A stretch of 64,000 nt of DNA, taken from positions 42,153-106,152 of the IMG/VR virus record IMGVR_UViG_3300043777_000086. One strand, given 5' to 3'. The number at the start of each line of letters is the position of its first letter. The stretch's first letter is position 1. Shown here piece after piece: positions 4,896-35,851 of the stretch. The notes beneath the pieces are model-generated. The model was given only the letters and a program-made list of their open reading frames with translations. It was not told the DNA's origin and did not search any database. Source of the stretch: a virus. The position numbers and the translations under genes were made by a program.

Positions 4896-5555
4896 ATGAC
4901 CCCCATCCGTCGCGCCCTCGCTGCTATCTCCCGCTTTGTCCGAGTTCGGATCTTTAGGCGTCCGGAACCTCCGATCGTAGAGCGGCCACCTGACGGCGCG
5001 ATCGTATTCCCAGAGCTTCCCTCAAGTAGAGCGCTTGAAGAGTATGGATCCGGAACTCAGGCGGTGGCTATCAGCACACTTCCTCGGCCGCCGATATCTG
5101 ACCTCATTCCGCTTAGGCCGGCGTCCTGTCTCTATGAGGTCACCTTCCAGCCACGGCCGTACTGGCTATTCGACTCGATCCACCTAACGGCTATCTGCGG
5201 GTCCGCGCTGCGGGTGATCGCGTTCCATGAGGACGTTTCGCACTGCATCTTCCAGGTGACCGTCACTCCGATCCCGATGCAGCTCGACCACGCGATGCTA
5301 TTGGGGTTGCATCGCGCGCGGGCAGAGGCGCCAGTCACGCTACGGATTGAGAGCCGGGTTACGTTTGAGGTCTACGAACTCCGCGCCACCTACCTGCGAC
5401 CGGACTTCCGGCGCGAGCAGGCTTCGGACGGGACGATGATGCTGGTGTTCAACGACCCGTTCTACAAACCGATAGCCGAATCCGAATTCGGATTACTTCC
5501 CTCAGCGCCGCACCACCGCAAGATCTACGGACCCGGCGCGGACGTGGGGTACTAG
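4896..5555 (+). CDS. hypothetical protein (opposite-strand insert)
   Basis: 219-aa ORF with own promoter candidate, convergent with late genes. Confidence 0.65.
   Translation: MTPIRRALAAISRFVRVRIFRRPEPPIVERPPDGAIVFPELPSSRALEEYGSGTQAVAISTLPRPPISDLIPLRPASCLYEVTFQPRPYWLFDSIHLTAICGSALRVIAFHEDVSHCIFQVTVTPIPMQLDHAMLLGLHRARAEAPVTLRIESRVTFEVYELRATYLRPDFRREQASDGTMMLVFNDPFYKPIAESEFGLLPSAPHHRKIYGPGADVGY
4938..4951. repeat. 14-bp dispersed palindrome copy GTCCGAGTTCGGAT
   Basis: exact match to RTCCGANNTCGGAY. Confidence 0.9.
5480..5493. repeat. 14-bp dispersed palindrome copy ATCCGAATTCGGAT
   Basis: exact match to RTCCGANNTCGGAY. Confidence 0.85.
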
Positions 5556-5869
5556 GGCTTAGTGACAGCCGGCGGGACTGTAGGGCAATTCCAGGTCTTG
5601 TCTTTGTTGACATGACATCCGGGACCGGCCCCATATTCCTTTATGAGCGTATTCTCGTAATCGACCCAGATCTTTTCTTCTTTTTGAGCCTCTTCGCGAG
5701 CCGCCACAAGGCGCAACTGGGCCTGCTGAAGCTCTAACTCCGCGCTCTGTACCGCCAGCATCTTCCTGGAGATTTCCTCATAGCGCTTCTCTGGGATAGG
5801 CGTAGGGGTGGTCGTAGGGGCAGCCTTATCATCCAGAAACATACAGATCGCCGCAACGAATAAAATCAC
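5552..5869 (-). CDS. small coiled-coil protein with hydrophobic N-terminus (possible fibre chaperone or spanin-like)
   Basis: hydrophobic N-terminus, heptad-rich middle, C-terminal Cys pair. Confidence 0.55.
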   Translation of the reverse strand: MILFVAAICMFLDDKAAPTTTPTPIPEKRYEEISRKMLAVQSAELELQQAQLRLVAAREEAQKEEKIWVDYENTLIKEYGAGPGCHVNKDKTWNCPTVPPAVTKP

Positions 5870-5879
5870 TAGGTCACCT

Positions 5880-7265
5880 CTAGCAATGCGTTATGATTCC
5901 GTCAGAGCTTGCGAACAAGGAGGTCGGGGTTCCTGTACAGGTAACTCCCGCTACTCCGCCGATTGTCATCCCCGTGGGCGTGAAGTTCCAGATTAGGGAC
6001 CCAAACCCAGAGGTGTAAACCTGTAAGGCAATTGTGGATTGCGTACCATTAGGCCCCATGTCCGCGATAGCAGCGCCGGAACCATTGAATATTTCCACCG
6101 CCCCTCCCGACCCTGAGAAACTTATCTCTACCTGGTTGGTGCCCGCATTCTGCATGAAAATTCCGGTGGAGTTCGCAACCACCATATTCTGACCGGATGA
6201 GTTATTCAGGATCAACTGTCCCGCGCCCGCTCCACTAGGGGTAATAGAAGCTAGTTCGATACTAAATCCTGAATTCCACAACTCTAGGTCGGTGCTGGAT
6301 TGAACTCCGGTAGAGGCACCCATAGATGACTTAGCCGCCCCAGTGTTGTCGAAAACTATTAATCGACCTCCCACGCCGGCTGTGAATGTGCCTTCGATCT
6401 GATTTACGCTGGTGTTTTGAACAAAGAATCCAGAGGAGTTAGCTATAAACGTATTACTTGCTACGTCTAAATCCACAGCTACATCGAGCTGATGAGCCGG
6501 GTTAGTGGTTCCAATTCCCACGAGACCTCCGGAGGTGATCCTCATCTTCTCGATGTTATTACCACCACTCAGGGCAGTAGCGAAGATAAGAGTTCCAGAA
6601 TAGTCTCCCGCTATAGAGTTCTCCTTATACCCCCAAATTTCGGCGGAATCCGCAAACGACCCGGTGCCTACGTAATCAAACCCGAGAGAGATATGCCCAC
6701 CAATTCCAGTCGCATGAGTTGAGGAACTATCCCGGATGACTGCCTGGCCGATGTTGGCAGAGCTTATACCCTGTACAGTTAGAACACCTATGGGGGCTAC
6801 TCCGATTCCCACCTTACCGCCGAAGAAGTCGAAATTAAAGGCATTGGTATTGAATGTCATATCGCCGGCGTTTGAATCATCTATAGACCACACAGTACCG
6901 CCAGTGGGATTCTCTAGGCGAATTCCATTCGACGCATTCAGAACATTATCCTGTAAGACCAACCCAGGTTCCGTGGGACCCGGAGAAAGAACAATGACCG
7001 AAGACAGGTGAGCGCCGCTTACATTTCCAGGACTCAGTACGATCGATCCATTACTGGACGAACGACCGGTGATTACTGAGGCGTTATTGCCGGATATCCC
7101 AAGGTCCATATAGGTTGCGCAGGAAGGGGTCTCATCACAGATCCGCAATTCTCCAGGGGCTGGCCCAGTCGGAACGGCTAGGATTTTTACCGGAGAGGAT
7201 AGGCTTATCTGTGCGTGAGCGCACGAAGCCAGCGCTAGAATGGAAAGAACTAATGCGTATATCAT
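5880..7265 (-). CDS. tail fibre-like protein with predicted signal peptide
   Basis: EKMRITSGGLVGIGTTNPAHQLDV and GKVGIGVAP fibre motifs; N-terminus MIYALVLSILALASCAHA-Q. Confidence 0.7.
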   Translation of the reverse strand: MIYALVLSILALASCAHAQISLSSPVKILAVPTGPAPGELRICDETPSCATYMDLGISGNNASVITGRSSSNGSIVLSPGNVSGAHLSSVIVLSPGPTEPGLVLQDNVLNASNGIRLENPTGGTVWSIDDSNAGDMTFNTNAFNFDFFGGKVGIGVAPIGVLTVQGISSANIGQAVIRDSSSTHATGIGGHISLGFDYVGTGSFADSAEIWGYKENSIAGDYSGTLIFATALSGGNNIEKMRITSGGLVGIGTTNPAHQLDVAVDLDVASNTFIANSSGFFVQNTSVNQIEGTFTAGVGGRLIVFDNTGAAKSSMGASTGVQSSTDLELWNSGFSIELASITPSGAGAGQLILNNSSGQNMVVANSTGIFMQNAGTNQVEISFSGSGGAVEIFNGSGAAIADMGPNGTQSTIALQVYTSGFGSLIWNFTPTGMTIGGVAGVTCTGTPTSLFASSDGIITHC

Positions 7266-7272
7266 AAAACCC

Positions 7273-7881
7273 CTACACTCCTAATTGAGTTGCAAACTTC
7301 CACCAGTTTCCATCTGACCGTCCGACGAACAAGTAAAAGTTCTTTTGGTTTGCGGCATTCCCTATGTCATTAACTGACGTGTTTTTTAGATGTGAATCCC
7401 AGGTAATCTGATCCCCGTCAGTTCCGTCACAGGTTAGCACAATGAGAAGTAGGGCGGCGACCGTTGGGGAGATAGACGCTACGATGTTCGTGGTCGAGCT
7501 ATGAGATAGTGCAATCTCCTGGAGGGTAAGACTGCCGCTACCGCCACCTCCTCCGCCGCCACTGCCGCCACTGGGAAAAGGCACTGGATTCTGGCTGAGC
7601 GCTGTATTTACCAACTGATTACTCGATCCGAACAGCTTCTGTGCGGCGATAAGCGTCAGTAGCGCAAGCGGGTTGGTCGGGACCGAATCGTCCTCGGAGA
7701 AGAAATCCGGAGCCGTCACGGTATTCCCAAGGGTGATCGGGCCTGTACCGCCCTGTACCGATGCGATCTGCTGCGCCAGGAAGTTCAGAACGTAGTTTAA
7801 CTGGAATAGTTCAGGATCTTGAAGGTCTTGCGGCGTGATCCGTATATTGACGCCCTGCTGCTCTACGGTGGGCATCTTCAA
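7273..7881 (-). CDS. putative tail protein
   Basis: two domains joined by poly-Gly linker; coupled to nozzle gene. Confidence 0.55.
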   Translation of the reverse strand: MKMPTVEQQGVNIRITPQDLQDPELFQLNYVLNFLAQQIASVQGGTGPITLGNTVTAPDFFSEDDSVPTNPLALLTLIAAQKLFGSSNQLVNTALSQNPVPFPSGGSGGGGGGGSGSLTLQEIALSHSSTTNIVASISPTVAALLLIVLTCDGTDGDQITWDSHLKNTSVNDIGNAANQKNFYLFVGRSDGNWWKFATQLGV

Positions 7882-10800
7882 TTCACCTGCGGCTGCGTCA
7901 ACTCAGACCACTTGAATTCCGCATACGATGCACGCTGCTGCCCTGAGAGCGGCAAGGACTCGACTCGGCTACTATCGGCGTAGATCTTAAACGGCGTGAC
8001 CCCGTCGATCGAGGTCACCACGATCCGGTATACCTTGCTCTTGTTGTACTGACCGTTCGCTTGATCCGGAAGGAAGAACCGTTCAATGTCCCGGTCGGCG
8101 TGCGCCGGTAGCTCCACCTGATAGAAAAGCGCATCGCCAGCCACGTACACAGAAACCACGATTGCCGCCGCGCATAGATACTCCACCCACATCTGCCGGA
8201 TCACCTTGAAGCCGACGTAGCCAAGGGTGTTCTCGTAAAGGTCTAGGATCGTGCGGTAGCACGGCTCATTCCAGACGTCGTAGGTGACCTTGAAGATCTG
8301 AGCTTTCCCTCCGGAGCCTGGAGTTGGTATCATCCGTGCGAGGCGCCCGATCAGGTTTGAGTTGCAGGTCAGAATCCTAACTCGATCCACGTCGGTGGTT
8401 GTGATTGTCCAGGTCTGGACAATTGACCCATCCAGTTCTAGTTGGAGCTGGCAGGCTACCCCGCCCGTATCGATATCCACTTCGATCCCGCGCCAAACCT
8501 TCTCGCACTTCCATCCATTATCGGACCACTCGGTTGCCGGTACGATGTCGGGCGGATAGTCGATCTTGGTAAAGGTGTACTTCCATACGCGCAGTGAAAC
8601 GGTGGTCGATTGCGGGTAGATCCGAACCATCTTTACGATCGTGTCGATTGTGATCGAGAACGACTGCTTGCAGCGCCCGGTTCCAGATAACACGAAGGAT
8701 TGTACGGCCGTATTCAATGTGCTGCCCTGCACTCCGGTGACGGTATCCATTAGCATAGTGGTCGTGGTGCCCCCGGTATCGTACTCAAACGAGACTGTTA
8801 TGAGGCGCTTGTCGAACGGACTCCCGAGATCGTCGTAATCAAACGAGTGGTCGACCGCGGCCTTATCGGCAGGCATCGTCACGAAACTCGCCCCCCACAA
8901 CTGGAACATGCCGTTCGTGGGGACCGTGCCCAGTAGAATCCGCGCCTTGCGCCCCATGATATCCGGATTGAGGGTGATCGTCACGTCGCGGGTATTTAGG
9001 GTTGCGGTGACGGTAACGGTTTGTACGATTGTGCCGTCGACCTCGATCTTGACGGGAATTGCGATGCCATTGGTATTCACATCCAAAACGAGCTGTTGGA
9101 AGTATTTCTCGAACGGAGATTTGCTATCGTCGTACTCCGTGAAGTTTACGATGTCCGGTGGGTAGTTCTCGGCCTTGATCTGATAACCGAAGATCTCGAA
9201 GTTTGTGGTGGTTGTCTGGGCGCGCAAGCGCAACTTCTTGGCGATGATCCCGTCTATGATCGCAAACTCTTGCTGTGACCGATCCGCGCCGGAGATCTGG
9301 AGCGTTTGGACTGCGAGTGTCTGTGTGTTCCCTCCAACGCCTCCGATTATGTCCAAGAACAAGTCGATCGCCTGCCCGTACGTATTGTAGTCTAGGGTGA
9401 TCGCGTAGATTCTCTTATCCCAAGGGTGTCCGTTGTCCTGCCAATCCGTGATCCGGCCTCGCTGAAGTTCAGCGAGGGGGATGTAGGTCATCTGAACAGA
9501 AAAGATCTGGACTATTCCGATTGAGCTGCCAGTGAACTGAATAGCAAAAACTCGGGCCTCTTTACCAAATACAGTTCCGCCCGACACGCCAAGCTGCAAC
9601 GGTACGAAGCGTCGGTTAGTAGTCGCAGTCAGGGTGAATTGATCTACCGGATCGAGAGTCCCGGAGTAATCGTAAAATAAGCCAACCGTGACCGTGTCAT
9701 GGGGGTTGCTTAATTCAACCAGCAGCTCCACGTATTGCTTATTGAGGGCTCGTCCCTCCGGGGCCATAATCCCAGTTGTGCCGCTCCATACGATCGGATT
9801 TCCGCTATTCGGGGCACCCGTGTAATGATCCGAGGTTCCCATCTCAAGCAGATGAAGCTCGGAGGTTCCGGGACCGTTTAGGAAGATTGCTCCAACGAGG
9901 CGCCCGGTGTCCTTCTCAACCATCATGGATGTTAACGCACCCTGCGCGGCCACGCTTGTGTAGACCACCGGCTCCCAGCGTTTGTAGATCAGGCTGTAGC
10001 GGAGTTGATTGATCAGATTCGACGTGTCCCGGTAGCTTAGGTACACGTAGTTATCGAATGATTGAATGAATATCTGATCCAGTTGAGTGAAGTCGATCGG
10101 ATTGAGCCCCTCCGCCCCTATGCCTACGAAAATAAGGTCAAGATCCTCAGTGACCTTAACGCACCCGCCGCCGGCCCAGGCGTAGATGCCGTCGTAGGAA
10201 ACGAACCAGATCTGATTGTTGACCTTGCACCACAGGTGCTTTCCGATCATCCCGCGGTCTGCTGGCGTCTCGGTGATGTTCAGGAACTGACCGAGCCAGA
10301 TCTGGAAGATGAAGATTGATTTCAGATTGAGCGAGACGTATCCGCCGCCGTAGTCCAACAGACCCATGATCGGGTTGTCGGGGCTACCGATGATCTGCTG
10401 GTGGGAATTCCCGGTCTCCAGATTTATGATCGGCCACTCTCCGGGATATCCGGCCTTGGACCGGTAGCAGATATGCGGGTTGTTGACGTCACCGGCGAGT
10501 AGTAGGCTGTTTCCTGCCTGGCACACAATATCGCAAGGCTGCCCGATTCTTACGCCGCAGGTGAGGGTCTCGCCCACGAAGTGTTGATTCTGGAGCCACA
10601 CCTGCACGAACCCAAGTCCGACCGAGAATACATTGGCGATCTCCTGATTGGATCCGGATCCGATCGTAAGCTGGGATCCGACCGTGAAATATAGGTGTGC
10701 GGATCCACCGATGTCTACCGAGTAAAGATTCGGATACGGATTGGATCCTCCGACAGGAGTCGGGGCTATCCCTAGCGTGGTGTTTAATGGCGTCGGCAGA

Positions 10801-13559: not shown

Positions 13560-13560
13560 C

Positions 13561-23230: not shown

Positions 23231-23656
23231 CTATTTGATCCTCACACACGCCCCCAACTGCCCCGCAAGAGCAGCCGGTGGTTTGAAACCTTTTTCGTGA
23301 TGCGCCAGCAAAGCCTTTGCGGACGCGGGAGTCAGATTAGGCGCTGACGTAAACTCCGCAACACATCCCGCGCCTTTGTAGCCTGTTTTGGGATCTGCTC
23401 CGTGAAGGACAAGCCAATACCACTTGCTCCCCGTGTAGGCGTAACCCTCGACGCGAGTAGGTGGGATGGAGATCTGAGTAGACAGCGTATTGATCTCCAC
23501 GGGATCGCGGCCCAACGTGAACAGCACGACATTGTAACCGACGTTCGGAACTGTCGTTGTGACTCGGAGTGTGAACCCAGCAGGATTCGCGTTTGAGATC
23601 GTCAGGCTCTGCGCCGAAGCGAGCGCCGCGAAAAGAATGAATGCAAGCGTTTTCAT
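23231..23656 (-). CDS. exported hypothetical protein
   Basis: signal peptide MKTLAFILFAALASA-Q; Cys pair. Confidence 0.7.
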   Translation of the reverse strand: MKTLAFILFAALASAQSLTISNANPAGFTLRVTTTVPNVGYNVVLFTLGRDPVEINTLSTQISIPPTRVEGYAYTGSKWYWLVLHGADPKTGYKGAGCVAEFTSAPNLTPASAKALLAHHEKGFKPPAALAGQLGACVRIK

Positions 23657-24704: not shown

Positions 24705-25406
24705 TCATAGGCTGCATACTCGGCATATCTCCCCCTGTTTACCATCTCCGCGAATCGGCCTGCCGCGCTCAAACTCTGCCGCGAGTTCCGCAAGCGACGA
24801 CGGCCATGTATCGCGACCGGGCGAGCGAAAGGTATGCCCCATCCTAGCTTCTTGCGCCACTGCGTCGGCGTAAATTTCTGGATAATCGCGCCACAGATCA
24901 CGCCATTCGCTTAGGCGCTGGTGGTAGCAACGCGCACAGTCCGTCCGCTTCGGGATTGTAATGCCGCGCTCCGCAAGATAAGACCTAACTTCCGTGATGC
25001 CCCATCCCCATTCGCGGAACGGGAATCGCGACTGAACCAATTCTCCATAAATACCTTCGCGCTCCTCTTCATCCGCCCGTAATCCGACGTGGTTTATAAC
25101 CGGGGCATTGCGAACACACCACGCGATAGTAGGCTCGATTTTAAGTTGCCGCGTACACCACCGTTGCCTGAAGTTTGGTAGGGCGCTGTGAATCTGAATC
25201 AGACCATTGAGAGTTTGAGCCGATACGCGTATAAACGACTTCCCGAGCAAGCGCTCCAGATTGGACCAGTGCTCCAGCATCGGCGGCAATTCATCCCCAG
25301 TCGGCGTGATGAGATATTCCCAGTCAGTTTCCGGCTCAACCTCGCGAAGTCGCAGTGCGAGCGCCACAGAATCTTTCCCGCCGCTGACGCCGACGATATG
25401 TCTCAC
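24705..25406 (-). CDS. PAPS reductase-family (CysH/DndC-like PP-loop) protein
   Basis: SGGKDS, RWCT..LKI.P, GLRADE, FP..W, C..C; GTGA overlap at 25403-25406. Confidence 0.9.
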   Translation of the reverse strand: MRHIVGVSGGKDSVALALRLREVEPETDWEYLITPTGDELPPMLEHWSNLERLLGKSFIRVSAQTLNGLIQIHSALPNFRQRWCTRQLKIEPTIAWCVRNAPVINHVGLRADEEEREGIYGELVQSRFPFREWGWGITEVRSYLAERGITIPKRTDCARCYHQRLSEWRDLWRDYPEIYADAVAQEARMGHTFRSPGRDTWPSSLAELAAEFERGRPIRGDGKQGEICRVCSL

Positions 25407-26056
25407 GGCCTCACCTCCCACTGATTTGCCGGTGGAGTAATCCACGCTTCCCAGTCCTGCTTAGGCACAACAGGTAACGTTGCAGGCTGATTCACAAGCG
25501 GATCTATCCGTCGCATTGGAATTGACGCAGGCGCTTTCCCGAACGCCGCGAGTGCCGTGTAGTCCGCGCACTGTCCAGCCCCGAGAGCAATGATGGCCGG
25601 TGGGGGATTGTCGATCGCGTACTTGGGAATGTTTTTTGAGAACAGCGCTTGCGCGGCAGGGATCAGCAAGCCGCCTGCCGTGATGATCGGCCCCAGTTCG
25701 CTGGGGCTCTTGTGTAGCGTGTTTTCGATCGTCACACCTAGGCCGATCGCCGCGCCGCCGTATCCGAGTACCTGAGTCGCGCGATACGCAAAGGAATGAT
25801 CGACTCGCGCGTTTAAGATTGCCGTTGACTGCGAGAATGTGTAGAAATTCACCTCAGGAAAGTTCGATTCCACCAAGGCCCACGGGATCGGTATGGGAGT
25901 TGGGCCGATGGCGCAGACCCTCAGATTCCAAGCGTAGGCTGACAGGCCCTTGCCGAGCAGCGGAGCGGTACCCGCTGAACTCATGAGGTTCATGCTTACG
26001 GTGATCTGCGCCGTGAGCGGCAGGCAGAGGATTCCAAGATGGAGCGCTAGTTTCAT
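25403..26056 (-). CDS. exported/membrane hypothetical protein
   Basis: signal peptide ..LPLTA-Q; glycine-rich hydrophobic hairpin. Confidence 0.65.
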   Translation of the reverse strand: MKLALHLGILCLPLTAQITVSMNLMSSAGTAPLLGKGLSAYAWNLRVCAIGPTPIPIPWALVESNFPEVNFYTFSQSTAILNARVDHSFAYRATQVLGYGGAAIGLGVTIENTLHKSPSELGPIITAGGLLIPAAQALFSKNIPKYAIDNPPPAIIALGAGQCADYTALAAFGKAPASIPMRRIDPLVNQPATLPVVPKQDWEAWITPPANQWEVRP

Positions 26057-27816: not shown

Positions 27817-30800
27817 TTAGTAGATCGAGCGAATCGGCTGTGAGATTACGGTCGACCCGTTCTTCAAATCCTCGATGATCCACGCGATGAATCCGGGGAT
27901 CTTTGGCACGGAGATCGTACATCCGCTTGAGCACGTCACGTAGGATGTGGTGTTGTAAGTGGATTCCGTGGTCGGTCCGAACAAATACGGCGTCGCGCCC
28001 GTCCCGTCCGTAGCGCAGTTGTCCGTACGGTTCGTGCAGTAGAAATTAGATGGACTACTTCCGGTCCACGTTGTCCCGGCCGGCGCGAACTCAGAGTAGG
28101 CGAATCGGATCCTGCGCGTATCCCCCGATGCCCCGGCGCCGTACTTAATCTGGATCTGCTGGAAGTCCGGAGAGGTTGGGTAGTTCATTTGCGGAGTCGG
28201 TGGGAGCTTATAGGCCCAGATGTCGATCCGGCCGCCACCGCTGCACCAGTCGCACACGAACATCGCCCATTGTCCGGTTGGTTCGGGAATAAACGTCGAG
28301 AATGAATACTGACGCCCCGGCCCCATCAAACCCATGCCGATCGATCGAAGTGTCGAACCGGTATAGTCCGAAAAATCGATGCGCTGCTGGATCATCATGG
28401 CCCCAAATGGAACGAAGCTATATACGCACGGGTAGTTATCGTCGTACCAGTTGGAGACGCACGCAGTAGAGAGCCTAGCCGAAGGGACCGTCATATAGGA
28501 GTCGCCTGGGCTGGATCCGGCGACACACTCCCCAGAAAGGTAGGCTCGACAACCCTGCCAAGGGACGCTGCTGCTCAACACTGAAGATGGCCCGCTCACA
28601 TCCTTCAGTAAGTTCGGACCTGCCCAGAACACCGGAGGGCTCACTTTGTAATTCGCCGCGGTCGAAGACCCGCACGCGCTTCCGTTTGCGACCTTATAGA
28701 TTATTCCACTCACTAACGTCACTGTTATTGGGCACGTTCCGGTTGCTGTCTCGTTAGATAGCCCATCGGATGGATTCCAGTGATTGAAGTCAGTCATCCA
28801 GGTTCTGTCGTAAATCGGAGCCGTATACTGATGCACAGACGGATAACCCTGAAGAGACCCACCTATAGACACCCCAGAACCAACCCCATGAAACACTGGC
28901 TTGCCAATCGTCGTTGAGTACGGCTGACCAACCTGAGTTGTGAATGGAATATTATACCGCGCCTGTAGGCTTTGAACGTAATTCGTTGCTCCCGGCGTGG
29001 GTCCAGGGCTAAGATCGAAGTGCCCACTAAAGGCCATCGGATCGTTAAGAAATGTGAGTGTTGATTTTGTTACGTCAAACCAATTACCTACACCCGGAAG
29101 ACAGCACACAGCGCCGGGCGGAGTTGCATAACCCGTCCATCCGGTACTCGAATTCTTAGTCGAAGCATTGAATGAACCCCAGATCGGAAACTGCGCGCGC
29201 GCCCATGTCACCACGAGACACTGCACTCCGCAACCTACATCCGTTACCGGAGCTACCGTGAGTGCCTGTAGGGTCTCGTTAACAGCGTGCAGAGATAAGG
29301 CGTCACCAGGTGCCAAACCCTGAATCTGCGACCACGCTGAATTCTGCGGCGTCGGCCACTTCGCCAATTCCGCAGTGCTCGGACTATGGGACGCCACATC
29401 CGGCATGTGGACCGTCACACACAGATTCCCTGTAATGCCGAATGAATTAGTCGGGCACGTATCTAGTGGGGACGTCGTGGTCATCGACGTGTCCGTCGTG
29501 AACACACCGCCTTTGAGCATGCTGTAGGGCGTTGACTGCCACGGCCCGACACCGGTTACGCTTGGGGTCGCCACGAAGGAGTATGCTCCGCCGAGAAGAT
29601 TACAGATAACGGAATAATATCCCCCAGAGGCATCGGCGGAATGATTAGCGCACCAACGCTGCGGAAAATGAGAATAGATGTTATCCGTTGCTGTAATAAG
29701 GCCTGTGGAGACATTGAACACATTGATTAGCGTGATTGTCTCGCCACCGGTAGGCGGACCGTTGCTGACCACCGCGAAGCCATTCGTGAACCGGTCAACG
29801 ATAGCTGGGTGCGAGGACGTCCCCACATCTGCAAATACCGAGCTATCCCAGTATGGGTTGGTCGCGTGGATCTGGTTATTTATGTCCAATCCAGCGCTTG
29901 CCGGGGTCAGGTCGGTCCACGTGAGGTTTTGATCGGACCATTGTGGCCCCTGAAACCAATTCTGCGTTGTGTCCTGCCCAGGAGAACAGCCGCCACCACC
30001 CGTACAATTATCGGATGATGGGTAAAGGCTGTGGCCGTACGCTTTGAACTTACCGGCGGTGGGGTTGTACACAACCTTGAAAATAGAGGGCGTTAGAGCG
30101 CTCCCTGTCTTGGCCGGAAAATCGAATGTGTTCGGATCGAACTGATCCCATGAGTCGATGAGCGGGACGAACCCACTTACCTGATTTGCGGGCGGATCCG
30201 AGCCATTAAAGAAATATAGCGGTGTAAGGTGTCGGACCTCACCAGTGCCCGGAATGAACAGTGCTAGGTTTTGAGCCCCTCCGCCAGACCTATCAAAGGT
30301 ACATAGCTCGCCGGTTTGCGGTGGAACAAGCGACGTAGATCCGTCCGCCATCGTGGAAATTGTCTGAGAATTTACCGTGCAGTAGGCCGTATTTCCCTCG
30401 GCCGGCGCGATGAACACGTCGCTAAAGGCCCAATCGAAACTCACGCTGATGTTCGCGGTCCCGGCTGCGGATCCGCTCGCCACCCAGAGCAAAAGTCCGG
30501 GCATACTGGTACCCGTCGCACTCGAGACACCGGGCGTCTCTACGACGGTCATGCTTTGACTTGTTGCTGGCGCCGCAGCGAGAGTGCAGAGGTGGTTTGT
30601 GCAAGAGCTTGACGGAATCTGATACTTCATTCCCGCGGGCCACTGGACGTTGAAGTTTAACCCCGTGGTTGTAGAGCCATTCGTGACAGCGCTACCCGAA
30701 ATCGTTATGGTAGAAGCTGTGGGTGTTAGCTGCCACGCCGTTGGAAACGTCGTCAGGTTCCAATCGCAGAAATAACAGGCTTGGCCGATAACCGTTCCGG

Positions 30801-31686
30801 GCCAGTTCGCGTTCGAGGGGAAGCTACCTGCCGGATTTCCAAGGGTGGTCGGAAGCGTTACCAAAGCGCTTGCCGGGAAGGTGCAGCTTCCGATCGCCGG
30901 GACCTCCGTGAGGCATCCCTCGATCACCATGCCGGAAACCGAACCGTTGCCGAAGATATGGACGCGTATGTCGTCGAGCGTCGGACCCACCGCCCACCCG
31001 CCGATCTGACTTCCGGTGAAGCTGATGATCTGCGGAAAGGGGATGAAAATCGGCGCTCCGTTACCCGTGCCGCTGTAGGTGTAAGAAGCAAGGGTCGATG
31101 CCGATCCACTAATAACGTTTGCTGGGTTCGTCCAGGCACTCGCCACGTCGAGCCAGTTCGTAGCGAGTTTATTGTGCTGGCTTTGTCCCCACCAGCCGGG
31201 CTGGGTAATCGGTATCAACGGAGCGCCCGTCATCGGATCGGCAACCGGAACGCGCGCCGACGGATTGACGATCGGCCAGTCGTAGTTGAAGGTCTTAGCC
31301 GAATTAAACGGCGGACTCTGTGTGTAGGCGCTTGGCTCGAGCGTCTTTGTCGTGAACGTGATGCTTCCGGTGTCAGCGCCGCTATTACATGTGACCGTCG
31401 CCGTGGTGCGGGAGTTGTAGAACAGAGTCGCCTGGGAGGAACCGGTGCCGAAGATCGCGTGCGTTGTTCCGTCGCCGGGAAGGACGGTCGTCAAATTCGA
31501 CGCATCGATCGTAACTGGTCCATAGAAACTAGCACCGAACACATTTGCGCTTATAGAATATGTGCATGGTCCGACCGTGGGTGTATAAATGACTTCCGCC
31601 TGGCGCGCGGAAACGGAGCCCAACTTGAGTGGGATTGTGGCGGAAAATACCGGGAGCGCCAACAAAGGAATGAGAAGACACCGCAT
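27817..31686 (-). CDS. large exported Cys/Ser/Thr-rich beta protein (possible spike/receptor-binding protein)
   Basis: signal peptide, many spaced Cys pairs, at end of fibre operon. Confidence 0.7.
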   Translation of the reverse strand: MRCLLIPLLALPVFSATIPLKLGSVSARQAEVIYTPTVGPCTYSISANVFGASFYGPVTIDASNLTTVLPGDGTTHAIFGTGSSQATLFYNSRTTATVTCNSGADTGSITFTTKTLEPSAYTQSPPFNSAKTFNYDWPIVNPSARVPVADPMTGAPLIPITQPGWWGQSQHNKLATNWLDVASAWTNPANVISGSASTLASYTYSGTGNGAPIFIPFPQIISFTGSQIGGWAVGPTLDDIRVHIFGNGSVSGMVIEGCLTEVPAIGSCTFPASALVTLPTTLGNPAGSFPSNANWPGTVIGQACYFCDWNLTTFPTAWQLTPTASTITISGSAVTNGSTTTGLNFNVQWPAGMKYQIPSSSCTNHLCTLAAAPATSQSMTVVETPGVSSATGTSMPGLLLWVASGSAAGTANISVSFDWAFSDVFIAPAEGNTAYCTVNSQTISTMADGSTSLVPPQTGELCTFDRSGGGAQNLALFIPGTGEVRHLTPLYFFNGSDPPANQVSGFVPLIDSWDQFDPNTFDFPAKTGSALTPSIFKVVYNPTAGKFKAYGHSLYPSSDNCTGGGGCSPGQDTTQNWFQGPQWSDQNLTWTDLTPASAGLDINNQIHATNPYWDSSVFADVGTSSHPAIVDRFTNGFAVVSNGPPTGGETITLINVFNVSTGLITATDNIYSHFPQRWCANHSADASGGYYSVICNLLGGAYSFVATPSVTGVGPWQSTPYSMLKGGVFTTDTSMTTTSPLDTCPTNSFGITGNLCVTVHMPDVASHSPSTAELAKWPTPQNSAWSQIQGLAPGDALSLHAVNETLQALTVAPVTDVGCGVQCLVVTWARAQFPIWGSFNASTKNSSTGWTGYATPPGAVCCLPGVGNWFDVTKSTLTFLNDPMAFSGHFDLSPGPTPGATNYVQSLQARYNIPFTTQVGQPYSTTIGKPVFHGVGSGVSIGGSLQGYPSVHQYTAPIYDRTWMTDFNHWNPSDGLSNETATGTCPITVTLVSGIIYKVANGSACGSSTAANYKVSPPVFWAGPNLLKDVSGPSSVLSSSVPWQGCRAYLSGECVAGSSPGDSYMTVPSARLSTACVSNWYDDNYPCVYSFVPFGAMMIQQRIDFSDYTGSTLRSIGMGLMGPGRQYSFSTFIPEPTGQWAMFVCDWCSGGGRIDIWAYKLPPTPQMNYPTSPDFQQIQIKYGAGASGDTRRIRFAYSEFAPAGTTWTGSSPSNFYCTNRTDNCATDGTGATPYLFGPTTESTYNTTSYVTCSSGCTISVPKIPGFIAWIIEDLKNGSTVISQPIRSIY

Positions 31687-32559
31687 CTACTGGACCCCGG
31701 AAATTACCTGATAAAGCATCGTGACTACGATAGATGCTCCCGCTCCGCCGGTGCAGTTGGCGGTTGAACTGCCAATATACAATCCCTTATTGACGACCGT
31801 GGCTGTAGCGGCTGTGCCATTGGTAGCAAGAGGGAAGGCGCTCTGCGAGGCGGTAAATTCAATCACGGTATTCTCAGAATAAGAAGTTGCAAAGACCGGA
31901 GACATGTTATACGCACTATCAGCCATTGAGGAACTATAACCGAGTCCGAAATTATGCCCGCAAGTAAACAACGCTCCGGCGTACACGAAGTTAATAAATA
32001 TATCAACTGGCTCGATAACCGTACCGGTGCCTAACGCGGCGAGTATCGGCTGGGGGGTTGTGAAAAGATTGGTGACTTGGCTAGCGCTTAGAGTTATGGT
32101 CACCGACTGGACTGCCGAGGCCCCGGAGCTCGCTGCCACACCAAGGTTCAGCACCGTCCCTGTCGCGTTCGCTGCCGCTGTGGTCTGTGCTTGCCCGTAC
32201 CATCCGCTTGTCGGCAGAGTTGTTCCGACATCCGTACAGCGTCCTGTGGTCACTGTCAATTGAACATAGTGGCCCTTGGTATACCCTGTCGCATCAGCCT
32301 GACATGGGCCTTCACTTCCAGGTCCAGCCATAGCGACGCTACCCGAGGTTCCCGCGCCGCTGACTGGGAGATAAAGCTGCGCGGCTGTCGCGGCAGTTGT
32401 GGCCGTGATCGCATTCCCGGAGGAATTGATTAGCGCCAGATTCCCCGTCGCGGTTCCCGTTGAAGTATCGTTCGTGGCGGTGATCTGGCGCATCACCCCT
32501 GGGGTCTGGGCATGCACCAACGCCGCGATTAGACAGATGGGAATGATAAGCCTTTTCAT
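31687..32559 (-). CDS. exported fibre/decoration-like protein
   Basis: signal peptide ..ALVHA-Q; C-terminal domain resembles that of 40112-40726. Confidence 0.65.
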   Translation of the reverse strand: MKRLIIPICLIAALVHAQTPGVMRQITATNDTSTGTATGNLALINSSGNAITATTAATAAQLYLPVSGAGTSGSVAMAGPGSEGPCQADATGYTKGHYVQLTVTTGRCTDVGTTLPTSGWYGQAQTTAAANATGTVLNLGVAASSGASAVQSVTITLSASQVTNLFTTPQPILAALGTGTVIEPVDIFINFVYAGALFTCGHNFGLGYSSSMADSAYNMSPVFATSYSENTVIEFTASQSAFPLATNGTAATATVVNKGLYIGSSTANCTGGAGASIVVTMLYQVISGVQ

Positions 32560-32568
32560 GTTTTCCTT

Positions 32569-33321
32569 TTAGTTGACGATCGCACCATAGGTCAATGCAC
32601 TTATAGTTGCAGTCGCTCCGGTGTAATTGCACGCACTAACGGTCACTGTATTCGCGGCCGATACGAACATCGCTGGCACCCAACTGGCCGGGAAGGCCGA
32701 GGGTATTTCTGGGCTGATCGCATTTCCGGTCTGCGCGCCAGTTAAGGTGAATGTCCCCGTCCCGCATCCGCCGTCATTAATTGAAGTGAATGTAATTGAT
32801 CCACTACCCTGGAACGTCCCCACCTGGATCAGTGCTCCGTATGTAGCCACCGCCGGAGTAAGTGGACCGCCGGAAGAATTAAAGATTCGTACGTCTATAG
32901 TATTGGCCGCAGAAACGAATACCGTTGGCGTCAATCCGCTCGCTAGCACCGGAAGAATGGGGCTCACCGCCGAACCGGTCGCCGTTCCAGTCAGAGTGAA
33001 GGTCTGATCAGCGCTCGTCCCATCGGGTATCGACGGGAATGTAAGCGAGGCCGTCCCGATCAAGCCGCCACCTCCGCCACTAGCCTGCGCCGTCCACGTA
33101 TTCGTAGCTGTGCATTTATAGAGAATCTGGCTCGTTGAATTGTAGTACCAGTCGAGGTTCGCCGTACACGTGGCTGGTGCTGTCGCCTGAACGGTGAATG
33201 GGCGCGTAGTGCCAGCCGTCGACCAGTCCATCACTGCGGAGGGGGCCGCGGTTTGACTGCCAGTGGGGGTCTGCGCCACCAATGAGAACGCGAGCAATGA
33301 TAACGTAATAATAATTTTCAT
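32569..33321 (-). CDS. exported fibre-like protein with duplicated C-terminal domain
   Basis: signal peptide; two copies of TF.SI.DG....TFTLTG..TG.A.SP...FVSAANT. Confidence 0.7.
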   Translation of the reverse strand: MKIIITLSLLAFSLVAQTPTGSQTAAPSAVMDWSTAGTTRPFTVQATAPATCTANLDWYYNSTSQILYKCTATNTWTAQASGGGGGLIGTASLTFPSIPDGTSADQTFTLTGTATGSAVSPILPVLASGLTPTVFVSAANTIDVRIFNSSGGPLTPAVATYGALIQVGTFQGSGSITFTSINDGGCGTGTFTLTGAQTGNAISPEIPSAFPASWVPAMFVSAANTVTVSACNYTGATATISALTYGAIVN

Positions 33322-33322
33322 A

Positions 33323-35851
33323 TCAGTTCGTCACGTTATAGCTCAGGCAGGCGGGGTTCGATGAAGGCGAGCTTGCCACTGTGATAGTGAAGGATGTCCC
33401 CGGAGTCCTCGCTGAGATCCAAGAGTTGACGTAAGTTGTGTTGCACGTCACGCTGAGTTTAGTGCCTAGCGAAGAATCAAACGTTAGTTGGATCTGGCTA
33501 TTCGCGGTCACGGCGGTAGTTGCCACAACGACAGTGGTGGCTGATACCGCTACAGTAACCGACCCCGCCGCTGCCGAACCGCATGTCCCGCCAGCGCTAG
33601 AGCAATTCGTACTTGTCGATATTGTCGGGAAGATCCCAGTGCTTGAGATGGTGTTCACGCCCTTGGAATCTGGGGTTATGGAGATCCCCGCCCCTGGTAG
33701 TAGCGCGTCGGTAGAGAATGCCGCGAGATTATTATTTGTCGTGCTCCACTGACTCGCCGTGCCCCCGGCCGTGCCGCTCGCGAATGGCTTGTATCCTATC
33801 CCTGGCCATGCCGTGGCTGTGGTGGATCCGAGCGTGAGGTTTGTTAGAGTCAGACCCCCCGATACGATCACGTTTGAGACATCCAAACGGAAGCGCTGGT
33901 TCTCGAGATCGTAGGTAATCCACCAGTTTGCGGCGGATGGAACCCAGGAACCGGAACCAACAGCTTTGAGCGTCAGCGCTCCGAGATTAGACGGGATACC
34001 CCCCGTCTCGAAGTTGGTCCCACCGGACGGCGATGTACAGATGAGCGTGTCGTTCGTTGTCGAGGTCGTCGAGATCAAACAACTATAATCCGTCAACTGA
34101 TTTGCGGCCGCCGCTCCAGACCCACCTGCTCCGCAATTACCGTTTAGTAAAGGAGCGTTCGTCGTGGTGCTACATCCTGTGCCGGTCCAGAGGGCTGCGA
34201 TGTCGCTGAAGGTTGCTATCGTAAATGGTCCGGTGCCGTTGCCTTTGAGGGGTCCTGTGAGCGTCCCCGCTCCGGATCCTCCGCCAGGAACGGCCAGAAT
34301 CCCGGTGACTTGAAACTTTTCAATTTGCCCGCTCGAATTAGAGGGGACGACGGTCTGCCCGTTATTTGCCACGCCGGTCTCGAAGTTGATGCCGGTCTGG
34401 TCTGAATTGGAAACGCTATTGGTTTGTACGGCGGATACGATTCCAGGCGTTCCGGCAGTGCCAGGCGCACCGCCTCCAGCCGCGTAACATTTTCCCGTGA
34501 AGGCCGCATCGAACAGACATGTCGGGCTGGTCGTATTCTGCCCGGTGACGCGCTTAGGGTTTACGGAGTTGCCAGAGGAATCCTGAGCCGTGACAGCGGC
34601 TCCGATCACGGCGCCTGTTATCGTGCAGGACGTCGTCGCCACCAACGTACATGACGCTGGAGTTCCGGATCCTCCGCCTGTCCCGCTGCCACACTGGGTC
34701 TGCCAATTAGTTGCGTCCGAGGTAATATCACAGCCCTGTCCGGTCGTCAGCGTCAAAGATGAGGACCCACCGATCGTACCTGAGGCTGGAGTCAGTGTCG
34801 CCGTTCCCGCCCCGATATCCTTAGCTGAAAACTTGAATCCAGCCGGGAAGGATCCGCCGGCCGCCGGGACGGTTACCGCAACAGCCGAGGCGTTATTGAA
34901 CGTGACGAGCTTCTGGCAATCCGAAGCCAGGATCGTATAGGATGTACCGGTTTGCGGATTTACTAATTCCTGACCGGATATGGTCCCCGTTACAGTAATG
35001 GTTCCGCCGCTTAACCCGCAAGCAGCTACGATCGACGTGACTGTTCCTCCGGGAGCCCCATTCAGATTGGCGTACGGGTATCCGGTCGGGATATCCCCGA
35101 TCAAAAGCGGCCCTACCGTTGGTGCGGCGGCAGCGGATCCCGACCCCTGCTCGATTACAAATTCACGTGTGGCGGTAGTGTTCCCGGCCAAGCGAGTCGG
35201 CGTCCCGCTCGCTCCTCCGTAGAGGAGATCACCTAGCGTTGTTAGCGGATTATTTAGAATCGAGAACGTTCCCAGCCCAAGATTGGTCCTTGCTGTGGCG
35301 GTGCTAGTCAGATCGCTCAGGTTATTTGCCGTCTGAAGGAAAGATGCAGCGGGCTGCACCGCTGCGCTGCCGAGTCCAAGGTTGGTGCGCGCCGTCGCCG
35401 CGCTTGTAAGATCCGAAAGGTTATTAGCCCTTATGAGAAAGATTCCACCGCCGCCACCTCCACCCCCGCCGATCCATAGGTAGCGCGTGCCGGCGTAGGA
35501 AATAGAAACTGATCCTGTGATTGCGAAGCTTATAAAGTCGTGGTATCCGGTTCCGACGCCGGCGCACGATGCGGAGGTGTTGGTAACTAAAGATCCGGTA
35601 TCCGAAAATGACGTCCACGGGCCTGTATCCACACCGTCCTGGTATTGGATTTGGGCAGACCACGTACCGGTTCCTGTTGCACAGAATGTGTGGGTTGTTG
35701 AGGCGTAAAGCGCCTGCGATCTATTATCTATGATTGTGGCAGAGCTAGTGATTCCTGCGACCACATTCGATCGGATGACCTCCGGTGCCTGTTGAGCGGA
35801 AATCCGAACTCGGACAAATAGGAGCGCTAGGATCAATAGAATTTTTTTCAT
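33323..35851 (-). CDS. tail fibre protein with predicted signal peptide
   Basis: 2x ANNLSDLTS.ATARTNLGLG, TT.GDLLYG, QTGTSYT..ASD fibre motifs. Confidence 0.8.
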   Translation of the reverse strand: MKKILLILALLFVRVRISAQQAPEVIRSNVVAGITSSATIIDNRSQALYASTTHTFCATGTGTWSAQIQYQDGVDTGPWTSFSDTGSLVTNTSASCAGVGTGYHDFISFAITGSVSISYAGTRYLWIGGGGGGGGGIFLIRANNLSDLTSAATARTNLGLGSAAVQPAASFLQTANNLSDLTSTATARTNLGLGTFSILNNPLTTLGDLLYGGASGTPTRLAGNTTATREFVIEQGSGSAAAAPTVGPLLIGDIPTGYPYANLNGAPGGTVTSIVAACGLSGGTITVTGTISGQELVNPQTGTSYTILASDCQKLVTFNNASAVAVTVPAAGGSFPAGFKFSAKDIGAGTATLTPASGTIGGSSSLTLTTGQGCDITSDATNWQTQCGSGTGGGSGTPASCTLVATTSCTITGAVIGAAVTAQDSSGNSVNPKRVTGQNTTSPTCLFDAAFTGKCYAAGGGAPGTAGTPGIVSAVQTNSVSNSDQTGINFETGVANNGQTVVPSNSSGQIEKFQVTGILAVPGGGSGAGTLTGPLKGNGTGPFTIATFSDIAALWTGTGCSTTTNAPLLNGNCGAGGSGAAAANQLTDYSCLISTTSTTNDTLICTSPSGGTNFETGGIPSNLGALTLKAVGSGSWVPSAANWWITYDLENQRFRLDVSNVIVSGGLTLTNLTLGSTTATAWPGIGYKPFASGTAGGTASQWSTTNNNLAAFSTDALLPGAGISITPDSKGVNTISSTGIFPTISTSTNCSSAGGTCGSAAAGSVTVAVSATTVVVATTAVTANSQIQLTFDSSLGTKLSVTCNTTYVNSWISARTPGTSFTITVASSPSSNPACLSYNVTN
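35802..35815. repeat. 14-bp dispersed palindrome copy ATCCGAACTCGGAC
   Basis: exact match, inside signal-peptide coding region. Confidence 0.9.

What the first reader, a model, noticed from the sequence alone, without database searches (positions are those of the whole stretch)
5552..35851. Tail-fibre/decoration-like proteins carry predicted Sec signal peptides and paired cysteines
Seen: signal-peptide-like N-termini, mostly ending A-Q, on 5880, 20393, 23231, 25403, 27817, 31687, 32569 and 33323, while capsid, portal, adaptors and nozzle lack them. 33323 and 5880 have clear phage fibre motifs and many have spaced Cys pairs (e.g. PATCT...LYKCT). Known: tailed-phage virion proteins normally fold in the cytoplasm. 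Inference: appendages are exported, disulfide-bonded in the periplasm and added to particles at or after inner-membrane rupture, a two-compartment assembly route.
Basis: partly seen in the sequence, partly recalled or inferred. Interest (0 to 1): 0.85.

Follow-up and report, generated by a model that had tools for sequence, protein, structure and literature searches.

The report
Phage fibre proteins carrying export signals
A complete 106-kb soil phage, probably infecting Acidobacteriota, puts its host's secretion signal and paired cysteines on 13 fibre-, spike- and sugar-cutting late proteins (a fifth of its coding capacity), so these almost certainly fold outside the cytoplasm, where tailed-phage particles are built; whether they then join the particle is untested.

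Summary
All eight named ORFs begin with cleavable Sec-type leaders, seven ending A|Q. Five more lie upstream of the window in the same 106-kb genome. Capsid, portal, adaptors and the 1556-aa tail protein lack leaders. After leader removal, 12 of 13 proteins have an even cysteine count, arranged as near-neighbour pairs.

The leader is conserved in orthologues in four related phage contigs, in a 169-cluster phage-only family built on the fibre's N-terminal domain, and in the cultured Acidobacteriota podophage Tunturi 1. Among fibre-repeat homologues, leader and cysteine pairs go together.

The host is probably a soil Acidobacteriota. Two of the proteins are copies of host exported beta-helix glycanases encoded in polysaccharide-synthesis gene clusters.

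Export and oxidative folding are well supported (about 0.85). Joining the virion after export is not shown (about 0.4).
- For it: the fibre evolves like a receptor-binding protein and is coupled to the adaptor genes. I checked that leader-bearing proteins of two cultured Cellulophaga phages are annotated as MS-detected virion proteins.
- Against it: the nearest fold of the fibre's N-domain is XepA/YomS, and XepA is exported but absent from particles.

This scan has noted the same pattern on many other phage genomes.

The parts
33323..35851 (-). 842-aa leader-bearing tail-fibre-like protein. Leader is residues 1-19 (A|Q). A conserved jelly-roll N-domain covers residues 20-135 and holds the Cys57-Cys96 pair. 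Fibre repeats cover residues 138-256. The C-terminal part is variable and has a sub-threshold K1-lyase_C match. The mature part has 18 Cys.
   Evidence: Its start overlaps the stop of 35848-36654.
32569..33321 (-). 250-aa leader protein (A|Q) with 4 Cys in two pairs. It shares a 46-residue segment with the distal part of the fibre of relative G003.
31687..32559 (-). 290-aa leader protein (A|Q) with 4 mature Cys. Its C-terminal domain is paralogous to the leaderless head-module protein 40112-40726. The pair C200/C269 is present only in the leader copy.
27817..31686 (-). 1289-aa leader protein (S|A) with 32 mature Cys in 16 near-neighbour pairs. It matches no family. A leader-bearing homologue sits two genes after the fibre homologue in contig L099.
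26053..26595 (-). 180-aa predicted lipoprotein with a lipobox-like L-C-G-C after a hydrophobic stretch. It is a possible outer-membrane spanin-type or exclusion protein and is not a type-I leader.
   Evidence: no family match
25403..26056 (-). 217-aa leader protein (A|Q) with 2 mature Cys. Its start overlaps the end of the lipoprotein gene.
23231..23656 (-). 141-aa leader protein (A|Q) with one Cys pair 39 residues apart.
20393..22543 (-). 716-aa leader protein (A|Q): an IPT-like domain, a right-handed beta-helix glycanase or lyase fold, and two C-terminal Big_2 Ig domains. It has 6 Cys. It is a copy of a host family encoded in polysaccharide-synthesis clusters of Acidobacteriota, and is paralogous (41%) to the 655-aa leader protein upstream of the window.
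5880..7265 (-). 461-aa leader protein (A|Q) with a tail-fibre-type GIGTTNP motif, one Cys pair near each end, and a position just after the conserved tail genes 7878 and 7273.
   Evidence: no PDB or family hit
5552..5869 (-). 105-aa protein with a hydrophobic N-terminus, a proline-rich linker and a coiled coil. It resembles a membrane-anchored, inner-spanin-like or fibre-assembly helper and is not a cleavable leader protein.
   Evidence: inference from sequence only
36651..37301 (-). 216-aa head-to-tail adaptor (SU10_adaptor, sub-threshold), no leader. It is conserved in relatives G002 (65%) and G003 (34%).
35848..36654 (-). 268-aa leaderless protein between the adaptor and the fibre, overlapping both neighbours. 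It is conserved in G002 (71%) and not found in G003.
7878..12548 (-). 1556-aa leaderless core tail protein (nozzle-like). It is conserved over its full length in G003 (35%) and is distantly similar to Tunturi_1 gp31.
40112..40726 (-). 204-aa leaderless head-module protein whose C-domain is the cysteine-free paralogue of the C-domain of 31687.

Best explanation
The window is the late half of a complete virulent podophage genome of a soil Acidobacteriota. Thirteen late proteins carry host-style cleavable Sec leaders: fibres, a giant cysteine-rich protein, small lectin-like proteins and two beta-helix glycanases.

Step 1 (strongly inferred). They are exported through SecYEG and cut by signal peptidase I, mostly before a Gln that can cyclise to pyroglutamate.

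Step 2 (strongly inferred). They fold in the periplasm, where the host's thiol oxidase closes the local cysteine pairs. This gives protease- and acid-resistant extracellular proteins.

Step 3 (inferred, about 40-45%). The fibre-type members are the phage's receptor-binding gear. These are 33323 with its conserved N-domain, the upstream 1358-aa protein, 5880, and probably 27817, 31687 and 32569. Heads with adaptor and nozzle are built and packed in the cytoplasm. When holin lesions merge the two compartments, the mature N-terminal modules dock on the finished particles. Tailspike or fibre addition is likewise the last, spontaneous step in P22 and T4 (own knowledge).

Step 4 (inferred). The two beta-helix proteins are captured host glycanases of the kind encoded in exopolysaccharide clusters. 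They cut the host's slime either on the particle or as free enzymes released at lysis.
For: Leaders and chance controls.

Cysteines: parity 12 of 13 (p=0.0017) and pair spacing beyond all 2000 permutations.

Leader and cysteines go together across homologues. Leader-bearing homologues (n=58) have median 1.55% Cys and 55 of 58 even counts. Leaderless ones (n=59) have 0.29% and 31 of 59 even (p=1.5e-12).

Paired gain and loss. C200/C269 occur only in the leader paralogue. Both N-domain cysteines were lost together in G003.

Leader conservation:
- In fibre orthologues of G002, G003, L098 and L099.
- In nearly all listed full-length members of a family of 169 clusters in which the domain always directly follows the leader, with protein lengths of 100-2205 aa.

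The family was not found in 185,579 species genomes.

Tail-module context. The fibre gene overlaps 35848-36654, which in turn overlaps the adaptor gene, and relatives keep this position. The fibre repeats match a solved tail fibre.

No leaderless fibre candidate exists apart from the full-length-conserved 1556-aa protein.

Cultured precedent, checked here:
- Cellulophaga phi18:3 gp085-087 and phi10:1 gp091-094 start with A|Q-, S|Q- or G|Q-type leaders, and their records say 'experimental MS/MS proteomics' virion proteins.
- Tunturi_1, a plaque-forming Acidobacteriota podophage sharing portal, terminase and nozzle-like protein with this phage, has leaders and 10-32 Cys on gp12-14 and gp17, and a leader on the small gp16.

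Host style. [AG]Q at leader ends is enriched in an Acidobacteriaceae genome sample (35% against 8%) and in the cellular homologues.
Against: Nothing shows that any of these proteins is in a particle of this phage lineage; the Tunturi paper has no proteomics.

The N-domain's best structural matches are YomS and the XepA C-domain (Z 9.1 and 9.0). XepA is reported as exported but absent from mature particles.

20393 begins directly with the same IPT domain as its cellular homologues, with no added anchor.

The Cellulophaga MS annotations do not say whether the leaders were cleaved or whether the proteins passed through the periplasm. Those proteins have few cysteines.

Docking after lysis has to compete with dilution.
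Confidence: 0.42

Rival explanations
1. The proteins are exported but never part of the particle. They are a phage-encoded secretome that works on the infected cell's envelope and slime. The glycanases and lectin- or fibre-like binders loosen or strip exopolysaccharide and receptors from the periplasmic side and, after lysis, in the surroundings. This would aid release, stop progeny sticking to debris, exclude superinfection or help lysis, as proposed for XepA. Host recognition would then rest on the leaderless 1556-aa tail protein.
For: The N-domain fold is closest to XepA/YomS, and XepA is exported and not in particles.

20393 and its paralogue are host-type exported enzymes. Their cellular homologues lie between Wzz, Wzy, flippase and glycosyltransferase genes, as WceF does.

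In this phage (26053, 25403; 5552), in Tunturi_1 and in phi18:3, the leader genes lie next to likely lysis genes.

P. gingivalis phages are already reported to encode Q-rule leader proteins of unknown, presumed host-modifying function.
Against: A free enzyme has no obvious need for a conserved N-terminal module joined to freely swapped distal parts, which is the evolutionary signature of virion-anchored receptor-binding proteins.

The fibre gene overlaps 35848-36654, which overlaps the adaptor gene, and it keeps its tail-module position across relatives.

The N-domain family was not found in cellular genomes, prophages included.

The phage would be left without any variable receptor-binding protein.

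Leader proteins at the equivalent position are MS-annotated virion proteins in two cultured phages.
Confidence: 0.38
2. The proteins are virion components assembled in the cytoplasm in the ordinary way. The leader is inefficient, is swamped late in infection, or serves another purpose such as a membrane-tethered assembly intermediate or a folding delay. The cysteines oxidise only after release into oxic soil.
For: The Cellulophaga MS annotations show leader-bearing proteins in particles without any evidence of periplasmic passage, and those proteins have few cysteines. Classical assembly needs no new mechanism.
Against: Leaderless fibre homologues face the same extracellular world yet are cysteine-poor with random parity. 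Leader-bearing ones are cysteine-rich and 55 of 58 even. This ties the pairs to export and not to life outside the cell.

The leaders are canonical, host-styled and conserved across a 169-cluster family.

No conserved internal start exists that could give a leaderless isoform.
Confidence: 0.1
3. Artefact: wrongly chosen start codons or chance hydrophobic N-termini on ordinary cytoplasmic proteins.
For: Starts were assigned by a simple ORF rule. The public collection's gene call for the 1358-aa protein starts 75 residues downstream and so lacks the leader.
Against: All 13 start at ATG, mostly behind SD-like sites. The residues of and just after the leader are conserved in orthologues. None of 111 spurious ORFs, and a mean of 0.65 in shuffled proteomes, pass the leader rule, against 8 real genes.
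Confidence: 0.03

Closest known systems
MS-annotated distal tail proteins of cultured Cellulophaga phages phi18:3 (gp085-087, NC_021794) and phi10:1 (gp091-094, NC_021802)
   Same: They are consecutive late fibre, pectate-lyase or 'tail protein' genes. Each starts with a host-style cleavable leader ending A|Q, S|Q or G|Q. They lie next to tail or lysis genes of tailed phages. The GenBank notes give 'experimental MS/MS proteomics' as the basis for calling them virion proteins.
   Different: The host is Bacteroidota. BLAST found no similarity to the phi18:3 stretch searched; phi10:1 was not compared. They have few cysteines (0-3). I found no paper in the searched library that comments on their leaders. 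The original PNAS paper is not held here.
Tunturiibacter (Acidobacteriota) podophages Tunturi 1 and 2 (PP887698, PP885685; PMC11924767)
   Same: They are the only cultured phages sharing portal, terminase and the nozzle-like protein with this phage. Tunturi_1 gp12, gp13, gp14 ('tail spike') and gp17 ('virion structural protein') carry leaders (A|Q on gp12, gp13, gp17) and 10-32 cysteines, and the small gp16 carries an A|Q leader. All sit between a tail gene and the lysis genes.
   Different: The relationship is distant (22-25% identity) and the genome is 63 kb. The paper reports no proteomics and never mentions signal peptides.
XepA (PBSX) and YomS (SPbeta) of Bacillus subtilis, PDB 6i56 and 6i5o (PMC6834076)
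   Same: They are the best structural matches of the fibre's N-domain (Z 9.0-9.1, rmsd 2.6-2.7 over 95 residues). XepA is a phage-encoded late protein exported beyond the cytoplasmic membrane.
   Different: Sequence identity is 10-13%. These are pentameric lysis-cassette proteins of a monoderm's prophages, not fused to fibres. XepA is reported absent from mature particles.
Pantoea stewartii WceF (PMC7949094)
   Same: It is an exported, tailspike-like right-handed beta-helix glycanase encoded inside the host's exopolysaccharide gene cluster. The Acidobacteriota homologues of 20393 are arranged the same way.
   Different: WceF uses a Tat leader and has a P22-like head domain. 20393 has a Sec-type leader, an IPT domain and C-terminal Big_2 domains, and it is phage-encoded.
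Leaderless podovirus fibres and tailspikes (T7 gp17, P22 gp9; short tail fibre gp92 of PDB 9zd7)
   Same: They share the plan of a conserved N-terminal module with exchangeable distal parts and a position after the adaptor genes. 33323 shares the fibre repeat with gp92.
   Different: These fold and assemble in the cytoplasm and have no leader (own knowledge). The leaderless relatives found here are cysteine-poor.
Q-rule leader proteins of Porphyromonas gingivalis phages (PMC10367356; Q-rule: PMC5837995)
   Same: They are phage genes whose predicted signal-peptidase-I cleavage exposes Gln, copying the host's leader style.
   Different: Those are prophage genes of unknown function, not described as fibre-like or as tail-module genes. 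The rule is described as exclusive to Bacteroidota, whereas the host here looks acidobacterial.

Membership tests
Cleavable Sec/signal-peptidase-I signal peptide | Positively charged n-region, 7-15 residue hydrophobic h-region, and small residues at -3 and -1 | tested here: met
   Rule-based reading of all 13 N-termini. 5880 lacks a K/R.
Cleavable Sec/signal-peptidase-I signal peptide | Call by a trained predictor (SignalP or DeepTMHMM), or experimental cleavage and export | not testable with these tools
Cleavable Sec/signal-peptidase-I signal peptide | Conservation of the leader in orthologues despite sequence drift | tested here: met
   G002, G003, L098, L099, and nearly all listed full-length members of the 169-cluster N-domain family
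Disulfide-bonded extracytoplasmic protein | Even number of cysteines in the mature chain, arranged as local pairs, and linked to the presence of a leader | tested here: met
   12 of 13 even, with a permutation test; leader against no-leader homologues; paired gain and loss. The bonds themselves were not observed.
Bacteroidota Q-rule substrates | Gln at +1 of the signal-peptidase-I site | tested here: met
   9 of 13 genome-wide and 7 of 8 in the window
Bacteroidota Q-rule substrates | Host belongs to Bacteroidota | tested here: not met
   Portal and terminase relatives are only Tunturiibacter phages. Cellular homologues of 20393 are overwhelmingly Acidobacteriota. The rule therefore seems to extend to this phylum.
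Virion tail fibre / receptor-binding protein | Fibre sequence repeats or fold shared with solved tail fibres | tested here: met
   33323 residues 138-196 against 9zd7 gp92, E 1.5e-18; PHROG tail-fibre families. For 5880 the motif was judged by eye only.
Virion tail fibre / receptor-binding protein | Conserved N-terminal module, exchangeable distal part, and a gene in the tail module | tested here: met
Virion tail fibre / receptor-binding protein | Physical presence in purified particles, or binding to adaptor or nozzle | not testable with these tools
   No proteomics exists for this lineage.
Right-handed beta-helix glycanase/lyase (tailspike-like; 'choice-of-anchor Q' proteins) | Parallel beta-helix fold | tested here: met
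   The model of 20393 (pLDDT 70.5) matches pectate, alginate and rhamnogalacturonan lyases, GH87, GH136 and GH28 enzymes, and the Dettilon tailspike.
Right-handed beta-helix glycanase/lyase (tailspike-like; 'choice-of-anchor Q' proteins) | NCBIfam NF041518 domain above its cut-off | tested here: inconclusive
   The upstream paralogue scores 23.1 bits against a cut-off of 25; 20393 has no hit. One homologue is named so by NCBI.
Right-handed beta-helix glycanase/lyase (tailspike-like; 'choice-of-anchor Q' proteins) | Catalytic residues and activity on host polysaccharide | not tested
   No active-site analysis was made.
XepA/YomS family | Shared jelly-roll fold | tested here: met
   Z 9.1 and 9.0, rmsd 2.6-2.7, 95 residues aligned, standing about 1.5 Z above the next rows
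XepA/YomS family | Detectable sequence homology; pentameric assembly | tested here: inconclusive
   No Pfam XepA hit and 10-13% identity in the structural alignment. The oligomer state was not predicted.

The most novel reading that the evidence does not exclude
Tailed phages of Acidobacteriota, and by the Cellulophaga records also of Bacteroidota, build their particles in two compartments. Head, adaptor, nozzle and ejection proteins are made in the cytoplasm. All receptor-binding fibres and depolymerase spikes are exported by Sec, trimmed to a pyroglutamate N-terminus, disulfide-locked in the periplasm, and dock on the particle only when the holin merges the compartments.
Probability: 0.38. 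Interest if true: 0.9.

Novelty: new variant of a known kind. Interest (0 to 1): 0.68.

Why it matters
All textbook tailed phages fold and assemble every virion part in the cytoplasm. If the host-recognition gear of a whole group of soil phages matures in the periplasm, several things follow:
- Assembly would have a compartment-crossing last step tied to lysis.
- Phage fibres could carry disulfides, pyroglutamate caps and perhaps periplasmic glycans that make them durable in acid, protease-rich soil.
- Expressing such fibres or depolymerases recombinantly would need periplasmic routing.
- Gene callers that skip leaders would mis-annotate them, as one does here.

Even under the sober reading, a fifth of this phage's coding capacity is an exported secretome, partly captured from host slime-synthesis clusters. 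That is a large, undescribed investment.

The question is now directly testable, because plaque-forming relatives with the same feature (Tunturi 1 and 2) are in culture.

A side result is that the 'Bacteroidetes-only' Q-rule appears to hold in Acidobacteriota too.

Tried and rejected
So neither the contexts of metagenome homologues nor an adaptor/N-domain docking test could be obtained.

Family and similarity searches:
- Pfam, PHROGs and NCBIfam gave nothing for 5880, 23231, 25403, 27817, 31687 and 32569, nor for eight of the nine upstream proteins scanned.
- No T9SS C-terminal sorting domain appeared among the Pfam hits.
- The ESM Atlas gave no usable feature hit for the 33323 N-terminal part or for 27817.
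- PDB sequence searches were empty for 5880, 38870 and 7878.
- The genome-contig scan with the fibre alignment found no relative.
- No endolysin or holin family was recognised in the window.

Two isoforms from an internal start just after the leader: no conserved in-frame start is present, so I dropped the idea.

Leaders as membrane anchors: rejected because the hydrophobic cores are only 10-14 residues long and are followed by small-x-small sites.

Sequencing runs: no RNA holder was listed. The DNA holders are labelled soil metagenome; one may be the source sample.

Literature: full-text searches found no paper describing Sec leaders on tail fibres of tailed phages. The Holmfeldt 2013 PNAS paper could not be read. 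The Tunturi paper has no proteomics and no mention of leaders.

Acidobacteriaceae leader survey: my first reading, by the first polar residue after the hydrophobic core, was too crude. I replaced it with a window test. It remains a rough rule-based estimate.

Full report
**What the window is.** The window is bases 42153-106152 of a 106,152-bp virus record with direct terminal repeats, rated complete. It carries a major capsid protein (41261-42244, PHROG 9953), a portal (44243-46108) and an SU10-type adaptor (36651-37301, sub-threshold). It also carries a long minus-strand late region. In the cultured-phage collection the portal matches only Tunturiibacter phages Tunturi_1 and Tunturi_2. The terminase and the 1556-aa tail protein also match Tunturi_1. 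These are plaque-forming podoviruses of Acidobacteriota. The capsid protein has weak matches to Myxococcus and other phages. The DNA holders are labelled soil metagenome.

**Checking the observation.** All but 5880 also have one to three basic residues near the start. Seven are followed by Gln. SD-like sites precede most of the starts.
- I laid the whole genome in the script box and found five more such proteins upstream of the window. In genome coordinates they are 19521-20309, 29173-31140, 31137-31952, 31949-32728 and 32730-36806.
- I also found one lipoprotein-type N-terminus (26053-26595).
- Capsid, portal, adaptors, the 391-aa and 1556-aa tail proteins and the large presumed ejection proteins have no leader.
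- A strict rule passes 8 of 123 called genes. It passes none of 111 uncalled ORFs and a mean of 0.65 genes in shuffled proteomes.
- The 13 proteins hold 22% of all coded residues.

**Cysteines.** After removal of the predicted leader, 12 of 13 proteins have an even cysteine count (p=0.0017). The remaining proteins are 39 of 88 even. The cysteines come as near neighbours, with within-pair spacing below all 2000 permutations. The large leaderless virion proteins of 557, 1057, 581, 391 and 307 aa have no cysteine at all.

Three natural comparisons tie the pairs to export:
- The C-domain of leader protein 31687 is paralogous to that of the leaderless head-module protein 40112. Only the leader copy has the pair C200/C269.
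- In the fibre N-domain, relative G003 has lost both conserved cysteines together.
- Among 117 homologues of the upstream 1358-aa protein, the 58 with a leader have median 1.55% Cys and 55 even counts. The 59 without have 0.29% and 31 even counts (p=1.5e-12). The same trend holds for homologues of 33323.

Leaderless fibres also end up outside the cell. So this difference argues for oxidative folding during export, not merely for life in an oxic world.

**Conservation.** Three related virus contigs were found and read in full.
- In G002 (capsid 91% identical) the order is adaptor, 268-aa protein, leader-fibre, a conserved 146-aa protein, then a leader-bearing 1139-aa protein.
- In the distant G003 the order is 395-aa protein, adaptor, a leader 646-aa protein, leader-fibre, a leader beta-helix protein, then the 1544-aa homologue of 7878.
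- Two further metagenome contigs carry the leader-fibre followed by more leader proteins.

The fibre has a conserved N-domain (residues 20-135), then widespread tail-fibre repeats, then unrelated distal parts. The repeats match the solved short tail fibre gp92 of 9zd7 (E 1.5e-18).

An exhaustive search with residues 1-140 found 169 clusters. In them the domain always sits at the N-terminus, directly behind a leader that nearly always ends A/G-Q. The proteins range from 100 to 2205 aa. No relative was found in 185,579 species genomes. The family therefore looks phage-specific.

**Host.** 20393 and its upstream paralogue (41% identical) belong to a family whose cellular members are almost all Acidobacteriota: Bryobacterales, Terriglobia, Acidobacteriaceae and Ca. 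Angelobacter. These members also carry leaders, many of which end AQ. In a 400-kb sample of an Acidobacteriaceae chromosome, [AG]Q at the end of leader-like N-termini occurs in 35%, against 8% of interior windows (a crude rule). The phage leaders thus copy the host's style. The Q-rule papers call this style exclusive to Bacteroidetes, but the first paper never names Acidobacteria.

**What the proteins are.**
- The 20393 model (pLDDT 70.5) is a right-handed beta-helix like pectate, alginate and rhamnogalacturonan lyases, several glycoside hydrolases and a phage tailspike. It has two C-terminal Big_2 domains.
- Its cellular homologues lie between Wzz, Wzy, flippase, glycosyltransferase and deacetylase genes. 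This is the arrangement known for the exported tailspike-like enzyme WceF. These two phage genes are therefore captured host slime-modifying glycanases, and they start exactly as the host proteins do.
- The fibre N-domain model (pLDDT 76) is a jelly roll. Its best matches are YomS and the C-domain of XepA (Z 9.1 and 9.0).
- 5880 carries a tail-fibre-type motif, judged by eye.
- 27817, 23231 and 25403 remain without a family.

**Do they join the particle?** This cannot be decided here.

For docking:
- The fibre family shows the evolutionary signature of receptor-binding proteins.
- The fibre gene overlaps 35848-36654, which in turn overlaps the adaptor gene.
- No variable leaderless candidate for host recognition exists.
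- Earlier notes of this scan gave a lead that I checked myself. In the GenBank records of two cultured Cellulophaga phages, gp085-087 of phi18:3 and gp091-094 of phi10:1 begin with Q-type leaders. They are annotated as virion, structural, tail-fibre or pectate-lyase proteins 'based on experimental MS/MS proteomics analysis'.
- The cultured Tunturi_1 shows the same leaders and 10-32 cysteines on gp12-14 and gp17, and a leader on the small gp16.

Against docking:
- XepA, the nearest fold, is exported but reported absent from particles.
- The glycanases look like plain secreted enzymes.
- The MS annotations say nothing about cleavage or route.
- The Tunturi paper has no proteomics.

**Verdict.** Export and oxidative folding: about 0.85. 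Post-export docking of at least the fibre-type members: about 0.4. A free exported secretome is nearly as likely. I found no paper describing leaders on tail fibres of tailed phages. This scan has recorded the same pattern on many other phage genomes, several of them acidobacterial. Those notes served me as leads only.

Noticed in passing
Loci L104-L123 (an Acidobacteriaceae MAG chromosome) and proteins P0125-P0159: Acidobacteriota signal peptides often end [AG]|Q: 35% of crude leader-like N-termini against 8% of interior windows, and many of the cellular homologues of 20393. The 'Bacteroidetes Q-rule' is described as exclusive to that phylum, and the first paper never names Acidobacteria. The rule may extend to Acidobacteriota.
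   Followed up: partly
window 15026-18319 (+), 24705-25445 (-), 22540-23184 (-), 18341-19084 (-): A plus-strand island inside the late region encodes a glycosyltransferase-sulfotransferase fusion and a CysC-like kinase (the kinase is named from earlier notes, not scanned here). Nearby minus-strand genes encode a PAPS-reductase-like protein, a GNAT acetyltransferase and a class-3 lipase. These could modify host or phage glycans.
   Followed up: partly
window 26053-26595, 25403-26056 and 5552-5869 (-): A lipoprotein gene overlaps a leader-protein gene. Separately, there is a small protein with a membrane anchor and a coiled coil. Both look like candidate spanin-type lysis parts. No endolysin or holin family was recognised anywhere in the window.
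   Followed up: partly
window 78-1823; locus L011 1393-3066 and 3056-6229 (-): Three large late proteins (581, 557 and 1057 aa) contain no cysteine at all and have low-complexity N-termini, as expected of internal or ejection proteins. This contrasts sharply with the cysteine-rich leader proteins.
   Followed up: no
Locus L010 14731-18807 (-), protein P0313: The public collection's gene call for the 1358-aa protein starts 75 residues downstream and so omits the leader. The skipped residues are conserved in the G002 orthologue. Automatic calls may hide such leaders systematically.
   Followed up: partly
window 37950-38816 (-); terminase 47254-49491 against G001 10496-14254 and G002 19829-22573: An HNH/AP2 homing-type endonuclease sits between the 391-aa tail gene and the adaptor genes. 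The terminase ORFs of relatives G001 (1252 aa) and G002 (914 aa) are much longer than this one (745 aa), which suggests intein-like or endonuclease insertions.
   Followed up: no
Genome G000:C1:15218-15664 (+), upstream of the window: A 148-aa early-region protein begins with a twin-arginine-type motif (T-R-R-x-F-L) followed by a hydrophobic stretch. It may be a Tat-exported phage protein.
   Followed up: no
Locus L097 1894-3834 (G003) and proteins P0314, P0320, P0330: A second conserved module (Q-N-P-N..P-G..A-T-D..L-L-V-A-T-N-N) directly follows the leader in the protein encoded right after the adaptor of G003. It also occurs in metagenome proteins of 898-2094 aa. This is another N-conserved, distally variable, leader-bearing family.
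   Followed up: no
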